Assembly (NCBI GenBank): GCA_037305845.1
Contig: CP147778.1
Span: 1,568,001 to 1,632,000, forward strand
DNA: 64,000 nucleotides
Origin: Candidatus Freyarchaeum deiterrae
GTDB taxonomy: Archaea; Asgardarchaeota; Jordiarchaeia; Jordiarchaeales; Jordiarchaeaceae
Direction of reading: 5' to 3'
Numbering within the stretch: position 1 is the stretch's first letter; each line of letters starts with the position of its first letter. The notes below the pieces were generated by a model, which saw only the letters and a program-made list of their open reading frames with translations, ran no database searches and had not been told where the DNA came from. Shown piece by piece: positions 54-63,720 of this stretch. Position numbers and translations under genes: made by a program.

Positions 54-482
54 TCATTTTTTTTCTTTCTTTATTTTATTTTCTTTAGAGCTTCTTATGT
101 CTAGAGTCTTCAATTTCTGCATAAGTTTTTCGTAACTATCATCCGTTTGAGTGTAACTGGTATATAGGTCTAGTGCTTCGGCAAGTCTTTTAGCTAAAAT
201 ATGATAGCAGGCTTTAATTTTTTTCCGTACAACTACGTTCAGGTAGAAATCATCACATGTACAATAAAAATCAGAAATTATTAGGTAATCCCTATTTTTA
301 CCAGAAACTATCCAAATCTGTTTATTGCTAGGTTTAAAAATGTGTTTTGTCACTTTTTTTTCTGTGATTGTTTTTAGAGCTTTCCACAGACGTTCCCCGA
401 AATTAGTCGCTAGCGTTTCTAGATTTTCCCCACTAATGCACTTGTTGGCGTAGATCTGTTCAATTATTTCCATAATTAGCAC
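54..482 (-). CDS. SWIM-type zinc-finger protein
   Basis: CTCDDF...ACYH (CxC-xn-CxH) motif in a 142-aa ORF. Confidence 0.7.
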   Translation of the reverse strand: MLIMEIIEQIYANKCISGENLETLATNFGERLWKALKTITEKKVTKHIFKPSNKQIWIVSGKNRDYLIISDFYCTCDDFYLNVVVRKKIKACYHILAKRLAEALDLYTSYTQTDDSYEKLMQKLKTLDIRSSKENKIKKEKK

Positions 483-18141: not shown

Positions 18142-18912
18142 TTGGTTGAAATAGCAGTAGTAACAAGCAACATGCGGCTATATTATAAAGTTGTTAAGGA
18201 GCTTAAGGATGAAGGTATTGCCTTCATTAGCATGAAGCCCGGCGAGGTTATTCCCAAAGAAATAAAATGTGTCATAACGTCTAGTAGTGAGAGAGATTTG
18301 GTTACGCATACGAACATTTTAATTGTTGATAGTGAAGATTCCTCTCCCCTCATACAAAAATTGCGCCTTGTTTTAACTGAGGTTGAACCTCCTATTACTA
18401 TGGTGACCGTCGGTGTTGACCCGGGAAAAACTTATGGTATAGCAGTGCTTGTTAATGAAAATGTGCTTGATACTTACAAAGCATTTTCTTCAAAAAAAAC
18501 CGCTGAAATTATCAAAAATATATTGTTAACCTTTCCTGCGGCGAGAAAAATTATCCGTATTGGAACAGGTGTTCCACTTTACTATAATCAACTTTTAGAG
18601 CTTCTAACTGATGTGAATGCCGAGTTGGAGCTTGTGAATGAATTTGAAACTTCTAGTGGCCCGCGAGCAATAAAAGATACGAATGCGGCTTTAGCAATCG
18701 CAAAGAAAAAAGGATTAAAACCACAGGAATATGAAAAAGTACACAGAATAAAGAGGGGTACAATTAAGCACATTCAAAAAATGAGTCGTCAAGCATCCCA
18801 TGGCAAAATAACAATAAATGAGTCTAGTGCAAGAAAGGTTGCGGTAGGGGAAATTAGCCTTGACCTCGCTATCGCGTCACAAAAAAAGAAAGCTGCGAGG
18901 AAAGATTCGTGA
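18142..18912 (+). CDS. Hypothetical protein with RNase H-like (YqgF-like) domain
   Basis: VGVDPGKTYGIAV, VNEFETS, D..AA..IA; overlaps the next gene. Confidence 0.6.
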   Translation: MVEIAVVTSNMRLYYKVVKELKDEGIAFISMKPGEVIPKEIKCVITSSSERDLVTHTNILIVDSEDSSPLIQKLRLVLTEVEPPITMVTVGVDPGKTYGIAVLVNENVLDTYKAFSSKKTAEIIKNILLTFPAARKIIRIGTGVPLYYNQLLELLTDVNAELELVNEFETSSGPRAIKDTNAALAIAKKKGLKPQEYEKVHRIKRGTIKHIQKMSRQASHGKITINESSARKVAVGEISLDLAIASQKKKAARKDS

Positions 18913-20195
18913 AAAAGGTAGTTGAGGCGAGACCAAATCAAACATTGCTTGTAAAAGGCCCGGCAAAAATAGATATTGTTAAAGGAGAGATTTCAATACT
19001 GGAGAACAATTTGGGGGAGGGAGAGAGTATAGTTATCACCAGAGGAAAAGCACTCCCCATTAAGGCTGTTTCGGAAACAGTATTGGATAGTTACATTGAT
19101 AATGATGACGCCGTCGAGCCCTTAGAGGAGCAATTTCCAAAAGAATGGATCGGTGTTACTAACCTTTTTGAGAATTTGGAATTACCCACACTAATACCCA
19201 TACTGGGGAGTGTAGATTCCGGTAAAACATCACTAACAACTTATTTAGCAAATAATGCTTTTAAAAAAGGTTACAGAGTTGCAATTGTTGATGCGGATGT
19301 TGGGCAAAGTAATATTGGCCAACCATGCTTCGTGAGTATGGGATTTATGGAGAAAACAGTTTCCATGCTTTCCGAGGTTAAATTGAAGGGGACTTACTTT
19401 ATTGGTTCAAATACTCCGTCTCGGTTACTTCATAGAACAATCACAGGAGTAGCAGTAATGGTAAAAAAGGCATTAGACAATAATGCAGAAATAGTTTTTG
19501 TAGACACGGCGGGTTGGGTTTATGGGAGAGGGGCGAGAGAACTTGAGGCATCCCTAATCTCAATGTTACAACCTAGAATTCTAATTGCGTTACAAAGAGG
19601 GAATGAAATAGAGCATCTACTAAGCCCATTCAATGAGTCTTTAGTTAATATTGTTCGACTCCCAGCCCCAAGAACTTATAAAAGAAGTAGAGAGAATAGA
19701 AAATTCCTTAGAGAAATCTCATATCAAAAAGGCCTGCAAGGAGGGCGAGACATAACTTTAAGCTTGGAGCAAATTAACTTGAGGTATACTCTTCTGGGTT
19801 CCGGCTCTCAAGTCAAACCCGAAAAATTCGAAGAAATAAAACGGATTTTAGGTTGTCTTCCCATTTATATTGAAGAATCCACAGATATTTTATACATTGT
19901 TCTGCCAGATTACGAAATTAGAATAAATAAAGACATAACAGAGTATTTAGAGGATCAGTTATATAAAACAGAAGTGTATCTCACCCAAAAAAGAGATTTC
20001 GAAAATGTCCTAGTTGCTTTCCAAGATGAAAACAATGAACCCCTCAACATAGGTATAATTAAAAGAATAGATTTTGAAAAACGTGAAATTACTTTCTATA
20101 CTTCTGCTGACAAAGAAAAAATAAGATCAGCACAATTTGGATTACTGAAGGTCAGCGAAGATGGAGAAGAACTAGGATATACGAAGATACTTTGA
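18909..20195 (+). CDS. Clp1/Grc3/Nol9-family polynucleotide 5'-OH kinase
   Basis: GSVDSGKT, DADVGQ, DTAGW, RSRENRKFLRE lid. Confidence 0.88.
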   Translation: MKKVVEARPNQTLLVKGPAKIDIVKGEISILENNLGEGESIVITRGKALPIKAVSETVLDSYIDNDDAVEPLEEQFPKEWIGVTNLFENLELPTLIPILGSVDSGKTSLTTYLANNAFKKGYRVAIVDADVGQSNIGQPCFVSMGFMEKTVSMLSEVKLKGTYFIGSNTPSRLLHRTITGVAVMVKKALDNNAEIVFVDTAGWVYGRGARELEASLISMLQPRILIALQRGNEIEHLLSPFNESLVNIVRLPAPRTYKRSRENRKFLREISYQKGLQGGRDITLSLEQINLRYTLLGSGSQVKPEKFEEIKRILGCLPIYIEESTDILYIVLPDYEIRINKDITEYLEDQLYKTEVYLTQKRDFENVLVAFQDENNEPLNIGIIKRIDFEKREITFYTSADKEKIRSAQFGLLKVSEDGEELGYTKIL

Positions 20196-20259: not shown

Positions 20260-21469
20260 TTACTTTCTTCCAATCCATCCTATCTCTTTTATAGTTTCGC
20301 CGGTTTCAATAACTTCAAAAGCCTTTTTCAATACATCTTTCTGTTCTTGTACGGTGACATCTCTGCCACCTAGACCTGCTATAAATTCCAGCACAGGCGG
20401 CCTCTTATCCTCTGTATATAGCGCAGCTTTAATCTCAGATGCTGATGCACCGCCTTTTCCTGCTGAAAGGTTTCTGTCTATTACTGAAATAGCTTTAACG
20501 CGACTAGCAATTCTGCGTATCTCCTCTTCAGGAAAAGGTCTAAAAGTCCTCAGCTTCACTGATCCTGCTCTGTAGCCTTCCTCTCTTAACTCGTCGACAG
20601 CTACCATAGCTTGGTCAGCAAGAGAACCCATACAGAAAATCACCGCGTCTGCATCTTGACACCGATATTCTTCGACCAAATCACCGTGATATCTTCCAAA
20701 TTTCTTTTTGAAATCAGAGGCAACCTCCACGATTTTTCTTTTAGCGTTTTCATGTGCTAAATGTATAAGATACTTGAACTCGTAAAACCAATCATCAGGG
20801 TTCTGTAGATTTCCATAAGTAATGGGGTTATCTATGTCTATACCTATATGCGTTGGATTATATGGAGGAATGAAAGCGTCAACCTCTTCTTGTTCTGGAA
20901 TCACGACTGGTTGAGAGGTATGACTAATAGTGAATCCCTCATAACAAACCATCATTGGTAGAAGAATCTCTTGATCTTCTGCAATTTTAAATGCTTGTAT
21001 AATTGAATCGAACGCGTCCTGATGATTGGCACAATAAACTTGCATCCAGCCAGTATCTCTTTGAGAAACCGAATCGTTGTGATCCGACCAGATGTTCCAA
21101 GGTGGTCCTAAAGCTCTATTAACTACAGCCATAACAATAGGCAAACGCGAAGACGCAGCCCAGTGAACCATCTCATGCATATAGATTAAACCGTGGGCAG
21201 AAGTAGCGGTAAACGTTCTAACCCCAGCGAGAGAAGCGCCGACGCAAGCTGCTAAAGCAGAATGCTCAGATTCGACACGCACAAATTTGGCATTCAATTC
21301 GCCACCATCAACAAGGTCCGACAACTTCTCTACAATACCAGTCTGCGGCGTTATTATCCCCGAACAAGAATCTTGCTCAGTTTGGATAAGCCGCTATAAC
21401 TGCGGGTCTCGATAAAGCAGCAGCGTAAGCCGCAGCATAATTTCCGGTTGTTATCACAGTTTTTGCCAT
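20260..21469 (-). CDS. porA: 2-oxoacid:ferredoxin oxidoreductase alpha subunit, interrupted by a 28-nt BHB intron; join(21382..21469, 20260..21353), 393 aa
   Basis: ATG at 21469 overlaps the upstream stop. Exon 1 reads MAKTVITTGNYAAAYAAALSRPAVIAAYP; removing 21354-21381 gives ...AAYPITPQTGIVEKLSD, continuing into the 354-aa ORF (ESEHSA, TATS, NRA). Confidence 0.92.
21354..21381 (-). other. BHB mRNA intron in porA (28 nt)
   Basis: GCGGCUU-AUCC-AA^A-CUGAGCAAG(AUU)CUUGUUCGG-GGAU-AA^U-AACGCCGC: 4-bp central helix, two 3-nt bulges, inner and outer helices. Confidence 0.88.
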
Positions 21470-22398
21470 TACGCTTCCTCCTTTTCTCTAACTGAGTGCA
21501 TGTTCTTTTTTGGACAAACAGATGCACAAACGCCACAACCTTTACAATAGGTATAATTAATTACAGGATATCCTTCCTCGTCAACACTAATCGCGTTTTC
21601 TGGGCAGAACATCCAACAAGCCAAACAACCATTACATTCTTCTCGATCATAAACTGGTTTAAAAACTCTCCACTCACCAGTTATTCCCATACTTGCCTCT
21701 GAAGGTTTGGAAACTGGTATCGGCGGCAGATCACCCCAAGTCTGAAATTGTGAAACTCTCACCCGCCTGGAAACAGGCATACTGCCCTCAATGTACTGCT
21801 CCTCCGGCACAACATGTTCCACTGTCTTTTCATAAGCTTTTTCAACTGCCTTAAGATTCTTTTCGCCTTCACCACCACTAAATATGCCACTTAAGGCCTC
21901 CAACATAGAATCCAAACTGATTAACCCCGTAGCCTTCGCAAAAGCACCGAGCATGGGTGTGGCAGAAAGTGCCAGCCCCGCCACTTCCAAACCAAATTCT
22001 ATAGAAGTAGAAGTAGCGTCCACAGTAAAAATTTTGGCACCCTTAGGAAGTTTTCCAATCTTGCTAACGGTGTCAGAGTTACCTGGAGTATTAATCACAA
22101 GGATTCCGTCAGTTTTTAAACCATCAGTAATGTTAACCATACCAGATTCAAACAATGTGGGATCAACAACAATCACAATATCAGGAGTATATACATTAGA
22201 ATGGATTCGAATCGGCTCTTTTGAAAACCTTGTATAGGCTGCCACAGGAGCACCACGGCGTTCAGCGCCGAAAAAGGGTATTGTTTGGACTCCTTGGAAG
22301 CCTTCATGGAACGCTGCCTCAGCCAATGTTCTGGCAGCTGTTACTGTGCCCTGGCCACCGCGTCCATGCCATCGTGTCTCGTAAACTTTAGCAGGCAT
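21469..22398 (-). CDS. 2-oxoacid:ferredoxin oxidoreductase gamma-delta fusion
   Basis: HGRGGQG, FGAERRGAP (gamma); TGEWR..KP and two CxxCxxCxxxCP motifs (delta). Confidence 0.92.
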   Translation of the reverse strand: MPAKVYETRWHGRGGQGTVTAARTLAEAAFHEGFQGVQTIPFFGAERRGAPVAAYTRFSKEPIRIHSNVYTPDIVIVVDPTLFESGMVNITDGLKTDGILVINTPGNSDTVSKIGKLPKGAKIFTVDATSTSIEFGLEVAGLALSATPMLGAFAKATGLISLDSMLEALSGIFSGGEGEKNLKAVEKAYEKTVEHVVPEEQYIEGSMPVSRRVRVSQFQTWGDLPPIPVSKPSEASMGITGEWRVFKPVYDREECNGCLACWMFCPENAISVDEEGYPVINYTYCKGCGVCASVCPKKNMHSVREKEEA

Positions 22399-22648: not shown

Positions 22649-23560
22649 ATGGCATATAAAGCACTACATGCTGAAGCTTCTGAGGAGCTTTGGCTACCAG
22701 GAAGTTCCGCATGTCAAGGATGCGGGTCAACACTGGCTTTGAGATGGGTTCTAAAAGCTTTAGGAAAAAAAACCGTCGTGGTAGCACCCGCCTCCTGCGC
22801 GAACGTTTATGTCGGATGGTGGCCCCGTTCATCTGCGGGCGTGACATATTTCGACATGGCATTCGCCGCCGGCGGAGCCGCGGCTTCAGGAATTGCAGCA
22901 GCCCTAGACTATCTGAACAGGAAAGATATTACTGTATTAACATGGGCAGGCGACGGAGGATCGGTAGATATCGGGATTCAGGCGTTGAGCGGTGCCGCTG
23001 AGAGAGGTACTAATTTCATTTACATATGTTACGACAACGAAGCTTACATGAATACGGGAACTCAGAGAAGTGGCTCTACTCCACTAGGTGCTTGGACCAC
23101 TACGACGCCCTTCGGTAAAAAACAAAAAAAGAAGGACTTAGCCATGATCATGGCTGCTCACAATATTCCTTATGTTGCCACTGCAACGCCTAGCTATCCA
23201 AAGGACCTTTATGAAAAAGTGAAAAAGGCGAAGGATATAGAAGGCACTAAGTACATTCACATTCTGGCGCCTTGTCCTCCTGGCTGGCGGTTTGATACCG
23301 AGTTAATAGTGGATATTGGCAAATCAGCTGTAGAGACAGGTATGTGGGTTCTTTATGAGATTGAGAACGGCAAATTCAAATTGAGCTCTCCTAGTGAGCG
23401 ATTGTTAGATCCATCAAAAAGGAAACCAATTGAGGAATACATTAGACTTCAGGGTAGGTTCAAGGACATTAAGGACGAGGAAATCCAAGAACTCCAGCGT
23501 GGAGTTAATGAACAGTGGGAAAAGTATAAGAAAATGGAAGAAGGCTGCGGCACATTTTAA
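22649..23560 (+). CDS. porB: 2-oxoacid:ferredoxin oxidoreductase beta subunit
   Basis: ACQGCG, GDGG..DIG, DNEAYMNTG, PCPPGW. Confidence 0.93.
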   Translation: MAYKALHAEASEELWLPGSSACQGCGSTLALRWVLKALGKKTVVVAPASCANVYVGWWPRSSAGVTYFDMAFAAGGAAASGIAAALDYLNRKDITVLTWAGDGGSVDIGIQALSGAAERGTNFIYICYDNEAYMNTGTQRSGSTPLGAWTTTTPFGKKQKKKDLAMIMAAHNIPYVATATPSYPKDLYEKVKKAKDIEGTKYIHILAPCPPGWRFDTELIVDIGKSAVETGMWVLYEIENGKFKLSSPSERLLDPSKRKPIEEYIRLQGRFKDIKDEEIQELQRGVNEQWEKYKKMEEGCGTF

Positions 23561-24266: not shown

Positions 24267-25190
24267 TTAAGTTAAATTCTGTAATTTAATTAATTCTTCC
24301 CATTTTTTATCAACGTAGTCCTGCATCTCTTGTATTAATGATTCTTGACGTTTTGGCTTGAATAAGTGACTGAACTTACCCTGGTATTTTAGGTACTCTT
24401 CAACCGGCTTTTTCTTAACAATATCCTTCGTTATTTTGTACTTTCCGTTTTCAACCTCGTAAAGTGGCCAGTAACGGGTAAGTACAGCTTCTCTAGCTAT
24501 CTCTATTGTTAATTCTGATTCAGTTCTCCATCCTCTAGGACAGGGAGCCAAAATTATTATGAATGAGGGGCCTTCAACCGCAACCGCTTTACGAACTTTT
24601 TTTATCAAGTCTAAGGGGTAGGCCGGGTTCGCAGTAGCGGCGTAGGGGATGTCATGCGCAACCACAATTTTCATAATATCCTTCTGAAATCGAACTTTAC
24701 CTGGGGTTACTTTACCCGTAGGGCTGGTCGTTGTCCACCCAAACTTTGGTGTAGCACCGCTCTGTTGAATACCGGTGTTCATGTACGCTTCATTAGTATA
24801 ACAAATGTACGTAAAATTATGACCCCGCTCCAACGCACCAGACAAAGCCTGCAAACCGATATCATATGTGCCGCCGTCTCCAGCTATAGCGATTACACGA
24901 TTATTCGTCTTCGGAATTCTGCCTTTATGTTGTAGAACTTTAAGTCCCACTTCCACGCCGGATGCCGCCGCGGCGGTGCACTCGAAAGCGGTATGTATCC
25001 AAGGGACGCTCCATGCCGTGTAGGGGTAGGGCGTAGTTGCTACTTCAACGCAGCTTGTAGCGTTAACTATTATGGGGGGTTTTTCAAGAGCCGTGAATAC
25101 TTGTCTTAGTGTTATTGCAGCTCCACAACCCGAACACAATCTATGTCCTGGTGTAAAATATTCTTGTGTAGGTAAACTTTTTAGGGACAT
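24267..25190 (-). CDS. porB: 2-oxoacid (pyruvate):ferredoxin oxidoreductase beta subunit, second set
   Basis: GHRLCSGCG, GDGGTYDIG, NEAYMNTG, PCPRGW. Confidence 0.93.
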   Translation of the reverse strand: MSLKSLPTQEYFTPGHRLCSGCGAAITLRQVFTALEKPPIIVNATSCVEVATTPYPYTAWSVPWIHTAFECTAAAASGVEVGLKVLQHKGRIPKTNNRVIAIAGDGGTYDIGLQALSGALERGHNFTYICYTNEAYMNTGIQQSGATPKFGWTTTSPTGKVTPGKVRFQKDIMKIVVAHDIPYAATANPAYPLDLIKKVRKAVAVEGPSFIIILAPCPRGWRTESELTIEIAREAVLTRYWPLYEVENGKYKITKDIVKKKPVEEYLKYQGKFSHLFKPKRQESLIQEMQDYVDKKWEELIKLQNLT

Positions 25191-25195
25191 AGTTT

Positions 25196-26407
25196 TTACG
25201 CTCCATCATAAGTTACGTTTATACATCCTGGGCCTCTGCAGCCCACGATTTTGTAGTTCTCTTCAATCTTGTCTTTTTTGGCAACTTCGAGAAGTATTTC
25301 GGAAACTTTTTCGAAATGTTCGGTTCTTGTGTCTCTCCCGCCAAGGCCTGTGGGGAACCCCATAATATGGGGGCGGTCTTTGAGCTCATATAATGCGGAT
25401 CTTGCTTCCATACTCAGTGCGCCACCCATTGATCCGAAACTAATGTTTCGATCTATTACTCCAACAGCCTTTATGTTTTTGAGTGATTTTTGTAAGTCCT
25501 CGACTGGGAAGGGGCGGAATACTCGAAGTTTAAGGAGGCCTATCTTTTTCCCCTCTTTTCGCAGCTTATTAACTGCTTCTTGGGCGGTTCCTGCTAGTGA
25601 TCCTATGGTTAATAATGCGACTTCTGCGTCCTCCATTTTGTATTGAGAAATGACCTCGTAATTTGTGTCGAATCTGTTGTTGAAGTCGCTGAATACTTTT
25701 TTGATGACTTTTAGAGAGTTTTGTGTGGCTACTTCTTGTTGGACTTTGATTTCGGGGTAGTATTCGGGCCCGCCGACGCATCCAACTGTTACTGGGTTAT
25801 CTACATCTACTGAGGTATCTGCTTCTCGGAGGGGTAGAAAGTCGTCGATATCTTCTTGATCCAGAAGTTCTAAACCCTCTGTGGCGTGGCTTACGATGAA
25901 GCCGTCGTGGCAGGACATTACCGGTAGCAGGGTGCCTTTGTCTTCCGCTATTCTGTATGCCTGTATGATGGCGTGGTATGATTCTTGGGCGTTCTGGTTA
26001 TAGATTTGTATCCAGCCTGAGTCTCTCACTCCCATGGAGTCGCTCATGTCGTTCCAGATGCTCAGAGGGCTGTTCAATGCTCTGTTGGATACTCCCATAA
26101 CTATTGGTAGTCTAAAAGAAGAGGCGATAAACATCATCTCAAACATCAGAGCAATTCCTTGAGAGGCGGAGGCGGTGAATACTCTTGCTCCAGTCAGAGA
26201 GGCGCCTATACATGCTGCCATTGCTGAATGTTCGGATTCCGCGGATATAAGCTCGGCGTCGATTTCACCATTTGCATAATACTGAGCTAATTCTTCAACG
26301 ATCTGGGTTTGGGGAGTTATGGGGTACATGGCGATTACGTCCGGTCTGCATTGTTTTACCGAATGGGCTACAGCTTCATTTCCAGTTAATGCGGTTAGTT
26401 TTGCCAT
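25196..26407 (-). CDS. porA: 2-oxoacid (pyruvate):ferredoxin oxidoreductase alpha subunit, second set (no intron)
   Basis: GNEAVA, YPITPQT uninterrupted, ESEHSA. Confidence 0.94.
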   Translation of the reverse strand: MAKLTALTGNEAVAHSVKQCRPDVIAMYPITPQTQIVEELAQYYANGEIDAELISAESEHSAMAACIGASLTGARVFTASASQGIALMFEMMFIASSFRLPIVMGVSNRALNSPLSIWNDMSDSMGVRDSGWIQIYNQNAQESYHAIIQAYRIAEDKGTLLPVMSCHDGFIVSHATEGLELLDQEDIDDFLPLREADTSVDVDNPVTVGCVGGPEYYPEIKVQQEVATQNSLKVIKKVFSDFNNRFDTNYEVISQYKMEDAEVALLTIGSLAGTAQEAVNKLRKEGKKIGLLKLRVFRPFPVEDLQKSLKNIKAVGVIDRNISFGSMGGALSMEARSALYELKDRPHIMGFPTGLGGRDTRTEHFEKVSEILLEVAKKDKIEENYKIVGCRGPGCINVTYDGA

Positions 26408-26410
26408 TTT

Positions 26411-26701
26411 TTATTCTTCCTCCATTTCTATCGCTTTCACAGGGCATTCTTGGCAACATATTCCACAACCTTTGCAGTAAAAATAATTAATTTTGACCTT
26501 GTTTTCCTCTCTTTCTATGGCTCCTTCAGGGCAGTAAATCCAGCATAGTAGACAGTTGTTGCATTTGTTTTCTTTTAGTACAGGTTTTTTTCCTTCTCTC
26601 CAGTCGCCGGTTTTGTATTCTCTGGCATTACCTGACTCTGTGATGTACCCACCTTTGGGAATCTCGTTCCAAGATTTTAGTTTCTTTTCAGATTCGCTCA
26701 A
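26411..26701 (-). CDS. porD: 2-oxoacid:ferredoxin oxidoreductase delta subunit
   Basis: TGDWR, two 4Fe-4S motifs, YCKGCGIC. Confidence 0.93.
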   Translation of the reverse strand: MSESEKKLKSWNEIPKGGYITESGNAREYKTGDWREGKKPVLKENKCNNCLLCWIYCPEGAIEREENKVKINYFYCKGCGICCQECPVKAIEMEEE

Positions 26702-27255
26702 CCCATCTTTACCTCCTCATACGCCCTTTTTATCGCATTTATGTTTTTTTCCGCCAAGTCTTGTCTGAATCTTTCTTTGGTCACCTCAATGATGGTGTTC
26801 AAACTTACGATTCCTGTAGCTTTTGCTAAGGCTCCTAGGATGGAAGTATTGGTTATTGAATTGCCTAGGGTTTCCACTGCGATTTTTGTTGCGTTAATTG
26901 TTGCAACCTTGTTATTTACTTTCAACTCGGATTTTATTTGAGGGGGATTTTTATCGGTGTTAACGATTATGATTCCGTCTTTCTTCAGACCCTCTGTGAC
27001 TTTTTCAACTTTTAGTAGTGTGGGATCCAGTACAACAACGATATCAGGGTCGTAGATCTGCGATCTGTTAAGTATCGGCTCATCACTTACTTTGGTGAAT
27101 GCCTTTATTGGTGCCCCTTTTCTCTCTGCTCCAAAGCTCGGAAAACCTTGAGCCATTTTTCCTTCCTTTATAGCAGCTTCTGTAACCAGTCTACTTGCAG
27201 TGACTACTCCTTGTCCTCCTCTACCATGGAATCTAATTTTAATAACATCGCCCAA
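26698..27255 (-). CDS. porC: 2-oxoacid:ferredoxin oxidoreductase gamma subunit
   Basis: HGRGGQG, FGAERKGAP. Confidence 0.93.
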   Translation of the reverse strand: MGDVIKIRFHGRGGQGVVTASRLVTEAAIKEGKMAQGFPSFGAERKGAPIKAFTKVSDEPILNRSQIYDPDIVVVLDPTLLKVEKVTEGLKKDGIIIVNTDKNPPQIKSELKVNNKVATINATKIAVETLGNSITNTSILGALAKATGIVSLNTIIEVTKERFRQDLAEKNINAIKRAYEEVKMG

Positions 27256-30106: not shown

Positions 30107-30205
30107 TGGCGCAGGGAGAGGGATTCGAACCCCCGCATCCCTTACGGGATACTGGCTCTCAAGGCCTACGCTTGAAGGAGATTCCTCATTCAATCAGCGC
30201 CGTTT
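30107..30205 (-). repeat. att-like partial copy of tRNA-Ser(UGA): 3' ~99 nt including the 29/30 intron
   Basis: Direct repeat of 50246-50344 with 8 mismatches; lacks the 5' acceptor and D-stem strands. Confidence 0.9.
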
Positions 30206-51429: not shown

Positions 51430-52305
51430 ATGAAACTTTCAAAAGAGGTACTTAATATTGAGCCAGAATTTGTTGAGAAGCGTGTTCTTAAATTTATTCG
51501 TGCTCGGGTTACTGATGTGGGTGTTTCAGGAGTGGTTATGGGTCTGAGTGGAGGTATTGATTCTTCGGTTGTTGCTGCTCTTTGTGTAAAAGCTTTGGGC
51601 CCGGAAAGAGTATTAGGGCTGATGTTACCCGAGAAGGATAGCGATCCTAACGATATTAAAGATGCTGTAAAAATAGCTAAGCAGCTTGAAAATCCCTATG
51701 AAGTAGTAGATATAACTTCAATAATTAATGCTTGCCGGGAAACCTATTTAAAGGATGCCTCGGATGCTCCTACAGTAGTGGGAAATGTGAAGGCACGTGT
51801 ACGCATGTTAACACTTTATTGCTATGCAAATAAACTGCATCGCTTGGTCGTTGGTACTGGAAATAAAAGTGAAATATTAATCGGATACAGTTAACGGTTG
51901 ATCACCGTAACTGCCGAAAACTTTACCAAGTACGGCGACGGCGGCTCAGATATATTACCAATAGGTGATCTTTATAAAACCCAAGTTCGTCAACTGGCAG
52001 ATTTCCTAGAAATCCCAAAAGAAATAATTAAGAAAACTCCTACTGCGGGACTTTGGAAGGGTCAAACGGACGAAGCCGAAATTGGTGTTTCATACGATGT
52101 TTTGGACCTGATACTTTATGGTTTAGAACATTGGATGAATGAGTCGGAAATAGCGGAAGAACTCAATGTACCACTTGAAAAAGTGAATAAAATAGTAGAA
52201 ATGTGGAGGAAAAGTGAACATAAAAGAAAAGGCCCGGTTGTCTTTAAATTATCACATAGAACTCCAAGTTTAGACTGGAGGATTCCATTTAACTATTATG
52301 TGTAA
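51430..52305 (+). CDS. nadE: NAD+ synthetase interrupted by a 33-nt BHB/BHL intron; join(51430..51886, 51920..52305), 280 aa
   Basis: GLSGGIDS, NVKARVRM, GTGNKSE; splicing restores IGYFTKYGDGG; PIGDLYKT, PTAGLW.GQTDE, SEHKR. Confidence 0.93.
51887..51919 (+). other. BHB/BHL mRNA intron in nadE (33 nt, contains in-frame TAA)
   Basis: UCGG-AU^A-CAGUUAACGGU(UGAUC)ACCGUAACUG-CCGA-AA^A-CUUU. Confidence 0.88.
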
Positions 52306-63534: not shown

Positions 63535-63720
63535 GCGGGGATTTCCAAGTGGTCAAAGCCTGACGGGTGGCCAGAGGAGGCAGACAGGAATCAAATCCCT
63601 GGCCGAGGCTCAGGACCTGCTGGCGCAGAGGCTCTCTGAAAGCTAGAGCCGCGAAAGCCTTCGCGTGTTCGAATAGAAGCATCATAAAGATGCTCCTCGA
63701 GTGTCACGCTCCCCGCACCA
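63535..63720 (+). tRNA. tRNA-Leu(CAG) with four introns: 63557-63574 (21/22), 63584-63607 (30/31), 63629-63656 (variable arm), 63674-63703 (59/60); encoded CCA
   Basis: Spliced 86 nt: GCGGGGA TT TCC AAGTGGTCAAA GGA G GCAGG CTCAGGA CCTGC T GGC GCAG GCC TTC GCGTG TTCGAAT CACGC TCCCCGC A CCA. Confidence 0.88.

What the first reader, a model, noticed from the sequence alone, without database searches (positions are those of the whole stretch)
21354..21381. 28-nt BHB intron splits the conserved YPITP motif of porA
Seen: the minus strand reads GCG GCT TAT CCA A[ACTGAGCAAGATTCTTGTTCGGGGATAA]TA ACG CCG CAG. The insert shifts the frame, and removal gives AAYPITPQT. Central helix AUCC/GGAU, bulges AAA and AAU, 9-bp inner hairpin with G-U pairs, exon-exon outer helix GCGGCUU/AA(C)GCCGC. 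The paralogous porA at 25196-26407 has an uninterrupted YPITPQT and serves as an internal control. Both exons are otherwise intact and exon 1 is translationally coupled to the upstream gene, which argues against pseudogenisation.
Basis: partly seen in the sequence, partly recalled or inferred. Interest (0 to 1): 0.93.

Follow-up and report, generated by a model that had tools for sequence, protein, structure and literature searches.

The report
tRNA-type intron splitting Asgard porA gene
A core metabolic enzyme gene of an Asgard archaeon is broken inside its substrate-binding motif by a 28-base hairpin shaped like the introns archaea cut out of tRNAs, and it is one of at least 26 such introns in this genome's protein genes, whereas the papers I could search document only one archaeal protein-coding sequence spliced this way.

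Summary
Confirmed. The 28-nt insert (21381-21354, minus strand) forms a canonical bulge-helix-bulge (BHB). Cutting after the second base of each bulge gives an intact 393-aa PorA/VorA-type subunit with YPITP; unspliced, the frame stops at codon 31. Fifteen variants in related Jordarchaeaceae (28, 29 or 33 nt) share the site. The BHB register is the only one restoring YPITP in all 15. Both exons are under strong purifying selection (dN/dS 0.03-0.08 for exon 2), and the paired synonymous sites beside the insert are frozen. The sister family and other Asgard lack it. A genome scan plus checks of earlier notes gives at least 26 such introns in 23 genes of this genome (size matches Ca. Freyarchaeum deiteterre). 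They include cbf5 at the known crenarchaeal position and nadE in this window; some are shared across the order, some are recent gains. An (alpha-beta)2-type EndA pair and RtcB are encoded. Published precedent is cbf5 plus one 5'UTR intron. This scan has noted the same phenomenon before, in this genome and in about 160 others.

The parts
21382..21469 (-). porA/vorA-type alpha subunit exon 1 (29 codons + 1 nt); ATG overlaps the upstream stop (TAATG)
   Evidence: dN 0.02-0.05 vs dS 1.2-1.8 against congeners
21354..21381 (-). 28-nt BHB intron; shifts the frame and holds TGA at intron nt 3-5 (21379-21377)
20260..21353 (-). exon 2 (POR_N from profile position 17, PFOR_II)
   Evidence: dN/dS 0.03-0.08
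21384..21387 (-). 5' (exon) strand of the 4-bp central helix, AUCC
   Evidence: invariant in 15 variants
21381..21383 (-). 5' bulge AA^A, predicted cut between 21382 and 21381
   Evidence: BHB rule (PMC2738675); first intron base varies A/T
21360..21380 (-). intron inner hairpin: 9-bp stem (21380-21372 with 21368-21360), 3-nt loop
21356..21359 (-). 3' (intron) strand of the central helix, GGAU
   Evidence: GGAU in 14 of 15 variants, GGGU in one, still pairing
21353..21355 (-). 3' bulge AA^U, predicted cut between 21354 and 21353
   Evidence: last intron base varies A/T/G
21345..21394 (-). whole BHB element including the exon-exon outer helix (21394-21388 with 21352-21345)
   Evidence: third codon positions in this helix are frozen
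21469..22398 (-). upstream fused gamma-delta subunit gene, translationally coupled to exon 1
22649..23560 (+). divergent beta subunit gene (best hit PRK11864, 2-ketoisovalerate type)
25196..26407 (-). uninterrupted paralogous alpha subunit (internal control)
51887..51919 (+). second mRNA BHB intron in this window: 33 nt with in-frame TAA in nadE (gene about 51430-52305), junction ILIG|YFTKYGD
   Evidence: exons end and start at profile 148 and 150

Best explanation
The insert is a tRNA-type intron in a messenger RNA. The transcript folds locally into a bulge-helix-bulge. The tRNA splicing endonuclease (EndA; one catalytic-type and one structural-type subunit are encoded) cuts after the second base of each bulge, and RtcB joins the exons, giving CCA-AUA-ACG (Pro-Ile-Thr) and a full 393-aa 2-oxoacid:ferredoxin oxidoreductase alpha subunit. 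Unspliced messages yield only a 30-aa peptide. By parsimony the intron was gained in the ancestor of this genus/family and has been kept because it is removable. It is one of at least 26 mRNA introns of this kind in the genome. Shown here: the anatomy, the conservation of site and structure, selection on both exons, and presence of the enzyme genes. Inferred: cleavage by EndA, ligation by RtcB, and the time of gain.
For: (1) 15 distinct variants, 28/29/33 nt (all three frames), proteins 84-99% identical. Central helix 4/4 in all; inner stem 128 of 135 cells paired; register 0 is the only one giving YPITP in all 15 and the sole valid one in 4. (2) Exon 2 dN/dS 0.03-0.08 with dS above 1 in 7 of 10 pairs; exon 1 likewise constrained. 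(3) The six paired third-codon positions around the insert have at most 1 deviant in 15, against about 21% of comparable sites gene-wide; the neighbouring unpaired codons 25, 33 and 34 vary. (4) YPITP is essential for catalysis (PMC5020499) and is the most conserved 9-residue window of the protein. (5) The top hit of an ab initio scan was cbf5 with the insert between nt 1 and 2 of the catalytic Asp codon, the position where splicing is shown in crenarchaea. (6) Of 75 orthologous inserts in other genomes whose length was chosen by protein homology alone, 67 have a 4/4 and 8 a 3/4 central helix, with exon-intron compensatory changes in cbf5, endoQ and gatE. (7) Two EndA paralogues and RtcB are present; 92-95% of tRNA genes carry introns in the complete genomes of that paper (PMC11291895). 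(8) A public contig lacks exactly the 30-nt alba intron, while a near-identical gene with it exists; library type unknown.
Against: The strict BHB is about 3 kcal/mol above the predicted minimum fold. Two-sided covariation inside the porA stem itself is slight and not above the shuffle control on five sequences. The genome-wide list was found using BHB shape, so its fit to the BHB is partly circular; only the comparisons with other genomes are independent of that.
Confidence: 0.93

Rival explanations
1. Programmed ribosomal bypass or frameshift (T4 gene 60 hop, or the byps of yeast mitochondria; recalled from memory): the ribosome skips the hairpin without the RNA being cut.
For: A stop codon right after the take-off point followed by a hairpin resembles a hop signal; the stop (TGA or TAA) at intron nt 3-5 is kept in all 15 variants.
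Against: No matched take-off and landing codon at porA; identical codons at only 5 of 26 introns. Insert length covers all three frames. A hop does not explain two 3-nt bulges flanking a 4-bp helix at exactly the EndA register (23 of 26 at register 0, 0-1 at slid registers, background 0.4%, partly circular) nor the same geometry at the cbf5 site.
Confidence: 0.03
2. Pseudogene or assembly error: the gene is dead, or the insert is not real, and a paralogue does the job.
For: The genome has two further close alpha-subunit paralogues, so the gene could be dispensable.
Against: Same insert in 15 variants from independent assemblies; all give 393 aa with no other lesion; strong purifying selection on both exons with dS above 1. 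Single-copy essential genes (kae1, gatE, cbf5, tyrS) carry the same kind of insert.
Confidence: 0.01
3. The insert is removed at the DNA level (an excisable mini-element), or the gene works as two separately translated pieces.
For: An intron-less alba contig exists; TTG starts lie at codons 40 and 49 after the insert.
Against: No intron-less porA among 44 close records. No terminal repeat beyond 2 nt. Codons 30-34 (ITPQT) lie before any restart codon yet are conserved with synonymous changes, so they are translated in the joined frame.
Confidence: 0.03

Closest known systems
BHB intron of the cbf5 pre-mRNA of Desulfurococcales and Sulfolobales (Watanabe 2002; Yoshinari 2006; Yokobori 2009, PMC2738675)
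   Same: Short (16-44 nt there, 28-33 nt here), no ORF, BHB at the borders, cut after the second bulge base, breaks an essential motif, hetero-oligomeric EndA. This genome also has a cbf5 intron at the identical position.
   Different: Host is a metabolic enzyme gene of an Asgard archaeon; one of at least 26 introns in 23 genes, two genes holding several; gains apparently continuing; splicing not yet shown on RNA here.
BHB intron in the 5' UTR of HVO_1309 of Haloferax volcanii (Schwarz 2020, PMC7714728)
   Same: EndA substrate in an mRNA.
   Different: That one is untranslated; this one interrupts the coding frame and must be removed for any protein to be made.
Multiple non-canonical tRNA introns of Jordiarchaeia/Freyarchaeia and Atabeyarchaeia (PMC11291895; bioRxiv 10.64898/2026.10.13.758758)
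   Same: Same lineages, same motif, similar size (T-loop introns of 27-31 nt in this genome), repeated gains of unknown route.
   Different: Those papers report tRNA genes; keyword searches of them found no mRNA introns.
IRE1/RtcB splicing of HAC1/XBP1 mRNA in eukaryotes (from general knowledge; mentioned in PMC13149111)
   Same: Protein endonuclease plus RtcB-type ligase removes a short frame-shifting insert from an mRNA.
   Different: Different nuclease and signal (two stem-loops), and stress-regulated; no regulation is shown here.

Membership tests
Archaeal EndA-spliced (BHB) introns | [quoted passage not shown] | tested here: met
   strict form about 3 kcal/mol above the minimum fold
Archaeal EndA-spliced (BHB) introns | Cut after the second base of each bulge gives the functional product | tested here: met
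   only register giving YPITP in all 15 variants
Archaeal EndA-spliced (BHB) introns | Uninterrupted homologues exist and the structure, not the sequence, is conserved | tested here: met
   two-sided covariation weak within porA, clear across other genes
Archaeal EndA-spliced (BHB) introns | Host encodes EndA and an RNA ligase | tested here: met
   two PF01974 genes, one with the Tyr/His/Lys-bearing motif read by eye; RtcB
Archaeal EndA-spliced (BHB) introns | Joined RNA observed in vivo or cleavage in vitro | not testable with these tools
Mobile archaeal introns with homing endonuclease (rRNA type) | Intron-encoded endonuclease ORF | tested here: not met
   28 nt; the longest intron checked in the genome (191 nt, ahcY) has no ORF spanning it
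Translational bypass elements (gene 60 hop, byps) | Matched take-off and landing codons | tested here: not met
   none at porA; identical at 5 of 26 introns
Self-splicing group I/II introns or other curated RNA families | Ribozyme core / Rfam match | tested here: not met
   far too short; the only Rfam hit in the window is a tRNA
PorA/VorA four-subunit 2-oxoacid:ferredoxin oxidoreductase alpha | POR_N and PFOR_II domains, YPITP motif, gamma/delta/beta genes adjacent | tested here: met
   substrate specificity not resolved

The most novel reading that the evidence does not exclude
Beyond being a tolerated, removable insert, the intron set forms a post-transcriptional control layer. One endonuclease-ligase pair gates tRNAs and two dozen metabolic and translation genes, including the ligase gene rtcB itself, so that splicing capacity sets enzyme levels. 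The stop codon kept at intron nt 3-5 in all 15 porA variants (TGA exchanged for TAA in one) would ensure that unspliced message gives nothing. The weaker claim, routine multi-gene mRNA splicing in Jordiarchaeia without regulation, I put at about 0.88.
Probability: 0.2. Interest if true: 0.92.

Novelty: new variant of a known kind. Interest (0 to 1): 0.82.

Why it matters
Archaeal protein genes are generally treated as intron-free, with cbf5 as the exception (PMC7714728 states so in 2020; nothing later turned up in nine literature searches). Here an Asgard archaeon appears to need splicing for at least 23 genes, among them essential ones (kae1, gatE, tyrS, rtcB, cbf5), with up to three introns per gene and both old and recent gains. 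That makes intron gain in protein genes, and the conflict between splicing and coupled translation, directly testable in a relative of the eukaryote ancestor, by a protein-enzyme route unrelated to the spliceosome. In practice public annotation is wrong for these genes: none of 44 close records of this porA has the correct N-terminus, so metabolic reconstructions of Jordiarchaeia miss or truncate core enzymes.

Tried and rejected
A search for a joined porA protein in the protein collection found none. A pattern search for an insert at YP|ITP in 400 Asgard genomes and in all GTDB species found real porA hits only in this genus; other matches were at control level and not porA (the patterns demand particular codons, so this is not proof of absence). 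Formal pair counting on five porA sequences gave 99 of 100 cells paired but no signal above shuffles. The test for insertion at conserved motifs gave only a trend (10 of 22 in the top quartile, p = 0.03, median percentile 0.71; biased low where relatives share the intron), so 'always in catalytic motifs' is not claimed. Scan candidates over 60 nt, and short ones such as +2568255, +1231795, -1863270 (purA), -2594867, -1551376 and +1567327, restored no recognisable motif and were dropped without a homology test. Wrong-geometry control scans gave 0-2 hits at the strict cut-off against 6 for the true geometry; a larger control run timed out. The library type of SRR28530378 could not be found in papers. 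The bacterial promoter scan was uninformative. Pseudogene, bypass and DNA excision were rejected as set out under rivals.

Full report
Observation. On the minus strand an ORF starts at ATG 21469, overlapping the stop of a fused gamma-delta subunit gene, runs 29 codons to ...AAYP and then meets a 28-nt insert (21381-21354) with TGA at its nt 3-5. Removing the insert gives 393 codons, 44% identical to the uninterrupted paralogue at 25196-26407 and without a gap at the junction. The region folds at -24.6 kcal/mol, z = -5.0. The elements are outer exon helix, AUCC, bulge AA^A, 9-bp hairpin, GGAU, bulge AA^U, outer helix. The strict BHB is about 3 kcal/mol above the minimum fold, in which two 3' bulge bases pair with exon 1. 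Exon 2 matches POR_N from profile position 17 and the archaeal PorA/VorA models from position 30-34. YPITP positions the threonine that binds the substrate carboxylate, and single changes in it abolish or strongly reduce activity (PMC5020499).

Organism. The genome is one contig of 3,576,204 bases, matching the 3.58-Mb complete Freyarchaeia genome, Ca. Freyarchaeum deiteterre (PMC11291895; identification by size and kinship). Congeners carry names such as Ca. Jordarchaeum madagascariense. In the three complete genomes of that paper 92-95% of tRNA genes have introns. A 2026 preprint ranks two Jordiarchaeia families first for tRNA intron load.

Relatives. All four congeners with the 5' end assembled have an insert at the same place (33 nt, in-frame stop). 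All five genomes of the sister family and the 20 other Asgard best hits are uninterrupted. Public contigs raise the set to 15 distinct variants of 28, 29 or 33 nt. The central helix pairs 4/4 in all and the inner stem in 128 of 135 cells. The two intron-side bulge bases vary freely (A/T; A/T/G). Because of that variation the BHB register is the only one that gives YPITP in every variant, and in four variants no other register works. All 15 joined proteins are 393 aa. Exon 2 has dN/dS of 0.03-0.08, with dS above 1 in seven of ten pairs, and exon 1 is equally constrained. Third positions of codons 26-28 and 30-32, which pair in the structure, have at most one deviant in 15, against about 21% of comparable sites elsewhere; codons 25, 33 and 34 vary. 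So the RNA structure, not only the protein, is under selection. Formal covariation within this short stem is weak. By parsimony the intron was gained on the stem of this genus/family; no tree was built.

Genome-wide context. A scan for canonical BHBs whose removal mends a broken reading frame, using only structure and codon statistics, ranked a set of 25-34-nt inserts at the top, each restoring a family motif. Its best hit was cbf5, cut between nt 1 and 2 of the catalytic Asp codon, exactly where crenarchaeal splicing is documented. Others are in kae1, an aconitase-family (LeuC-like) gene, pimt, alba, a selD-like gene, gatE, hypD, ahcY (two), a TIGR00375 gene, a radical SAM gene, moaE, an HD hydrolase, ychF, an NADH:flavin oxidoreductase, a RuBisCO-like gene (two, 18 nt apart) and nadE, which lies in this window at 51887-51919. 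Profile searches show the exon pairs abutting (TsaD 61/64, PCMT 59/61, NadE 148/150). Six more named in earlier scan notes (rtcB, mvhD, hdrC, a second radical SAM gene, tyrS, a 191-nt third ahcY intron) were checked in this genome and hold as BHBs that restore an open, motif-bearing frame; they were not compared with relatives. The total is at least 26 introns in 23 genes, a lower bound, since my scan missed six and cannot see stop-free in-frame inserts. Of the 26, 23 have a full BHB at the predicted register and 0-1 at slid registers, against 0.4% background; that figure is partly circular. The independent test is in other genomes: of 75 orthologous inserts whose length was set by protein homology alone, 67 have a 4/4 and 8 a 3/4 central helix. 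Inner stems differ in sequence and length (14-41 nt introns) yet mostly pair, and exon and intron strands change together (cbf5 CACT/AGTG, CTCT/AGAG, CCTT/AAGG; endoQ ATGG/CCAT, ACGG/CCGT; gatE GATG/CATC, GACG/CGTC). Ages differ. Eleven occur in both families of the order; porA and moaE only in the genus; nadE and one RuBisCO-like intron in two genomes; HD, ychF, the oxidoreductase, one ahcY and one RuBisCO-like intron only here among the genomes tested. The cbf5 intron also occurs in three other Asgard families and is missing from eight.

Machinery. Two EndA-family genes are present, one with the catalytic-type motif and one without, consistent with the (alpha-beta)2 type linked to cbf5 splicing. 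RtcB is present and is itself interrupted.

Mechanism. Most likely EndA cuts the pre-mRNA in both bulges and RtcB ligates the exons; ribosomes on unspliced message stop after 30 residues. Anatomy, conservation, selection and enzyme genes are shown. Cleavage and ligation are inferred from the established cbf5 and tRNA pathway. Ribosomal bypass lacks matched codons; a pseudogene is excluded by selection; DNA excision or a two-piece protein conflicts. How the introns arrive is open: none encodes an endonuclease, and the tRNA preprint found no general route.

Direct evidence. A 1,057-base Logan contig (SRR28530378), 91-93% identical to congener DNA, lacks exactly the 30-nt alba intron, and a record of the same N-terminal protein sequence with the insert exists. 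It may be spliced RNA or a precise loss in DNA; I could not determine the library type. Earlier scan notes report RNA-derived joined contigs for other Jordarchaeia genes; I did not test them and do not count them as support.

Novelty. In the literature searched, coding-sequence BHB introns are documented only for cbf5, with one 5'UTR case; the 2009 paper mentions unconfirmed predictions in other genes. Subscription journals are largely outside the library. The intron works like, and meets every testable criterion of, the EndA-spliced class. What is new is the host gene, the lineage and the scale. The scan has recorded the phenomenon before (228 notes in at least 160 genomes, several in this genome, one in a DPANN porA). 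Verdict: real; new variant of a known kind; confidence in splicing 0.93; interest 0.82.

Noticed in passing
window 51887-51919 (+): 33-nt BHB intron with in-frame TAA in nadE; also in one congener, absent from three others and from the other Asgard orthologues read.
   Followed up: yes
G000:C1:1876203-1877066 (-), L043: ahcY holds three introns (56, 29, 191 nt). The 56-nt one is bounded by a 7-nt direct repeat built on a palindromic central helix (CCGG), which hints at birth by short duplication.
   Followed up: partly
G000:C1:2174580-2174686 (-), L035: RuBisCO-like gene with two introns (30 and 59 nt) separated by an 18-nt exon.
   Followed up: yes
   Followed up: partly
L091, L092, L102, L103: In the sister family the kae1 and hypD introns shrink to 14 and 17 nt with almost no inner stem.
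   Followed up: no
L073, L080, L087, L088: The cbf5 intron at the crenarchaeal Asp position also occurs in three other Asgard families and is missing from eight: repeated gain at a hot spot or repeated loss.
   Followed up: partly
L292 (Logan SRR28530378) 366-692: alba gene lacking exactly the 30-nt intron; library type unknown. Other Jordarchaeales alba proteins on long genomic contigs are also intron-less (P0055).
   Followed up: partly
window 18909-20195 (+): Clp1/Nol9-family polynucleotide kinase gene converges on porA, conserved in synteny in related contigs; no link to splicing tested.
   Followed up: no
window 30165-30194 (-) and 63674-63703 (+): 29- and 30-nt BHB introns in tRNA genes, of the same size class as the mRNA introns; ARAGORN finds only 17 tRNA genes in the genome, several wrongly.
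   Followed up: no
L045 about 390-400 (+): The selD-like ORF begins just after an in-frame stop before SCKLP, as expected for a selenocysteine codon; codon not checked.
   Followed up: no
window 21469-22398 (-) and 22649-23560 (+): In this operon the gamma and delta subunits are fused and the beta gene is transcribed divergently, unlike the second operon at 24267-27255.
   Followed up: no
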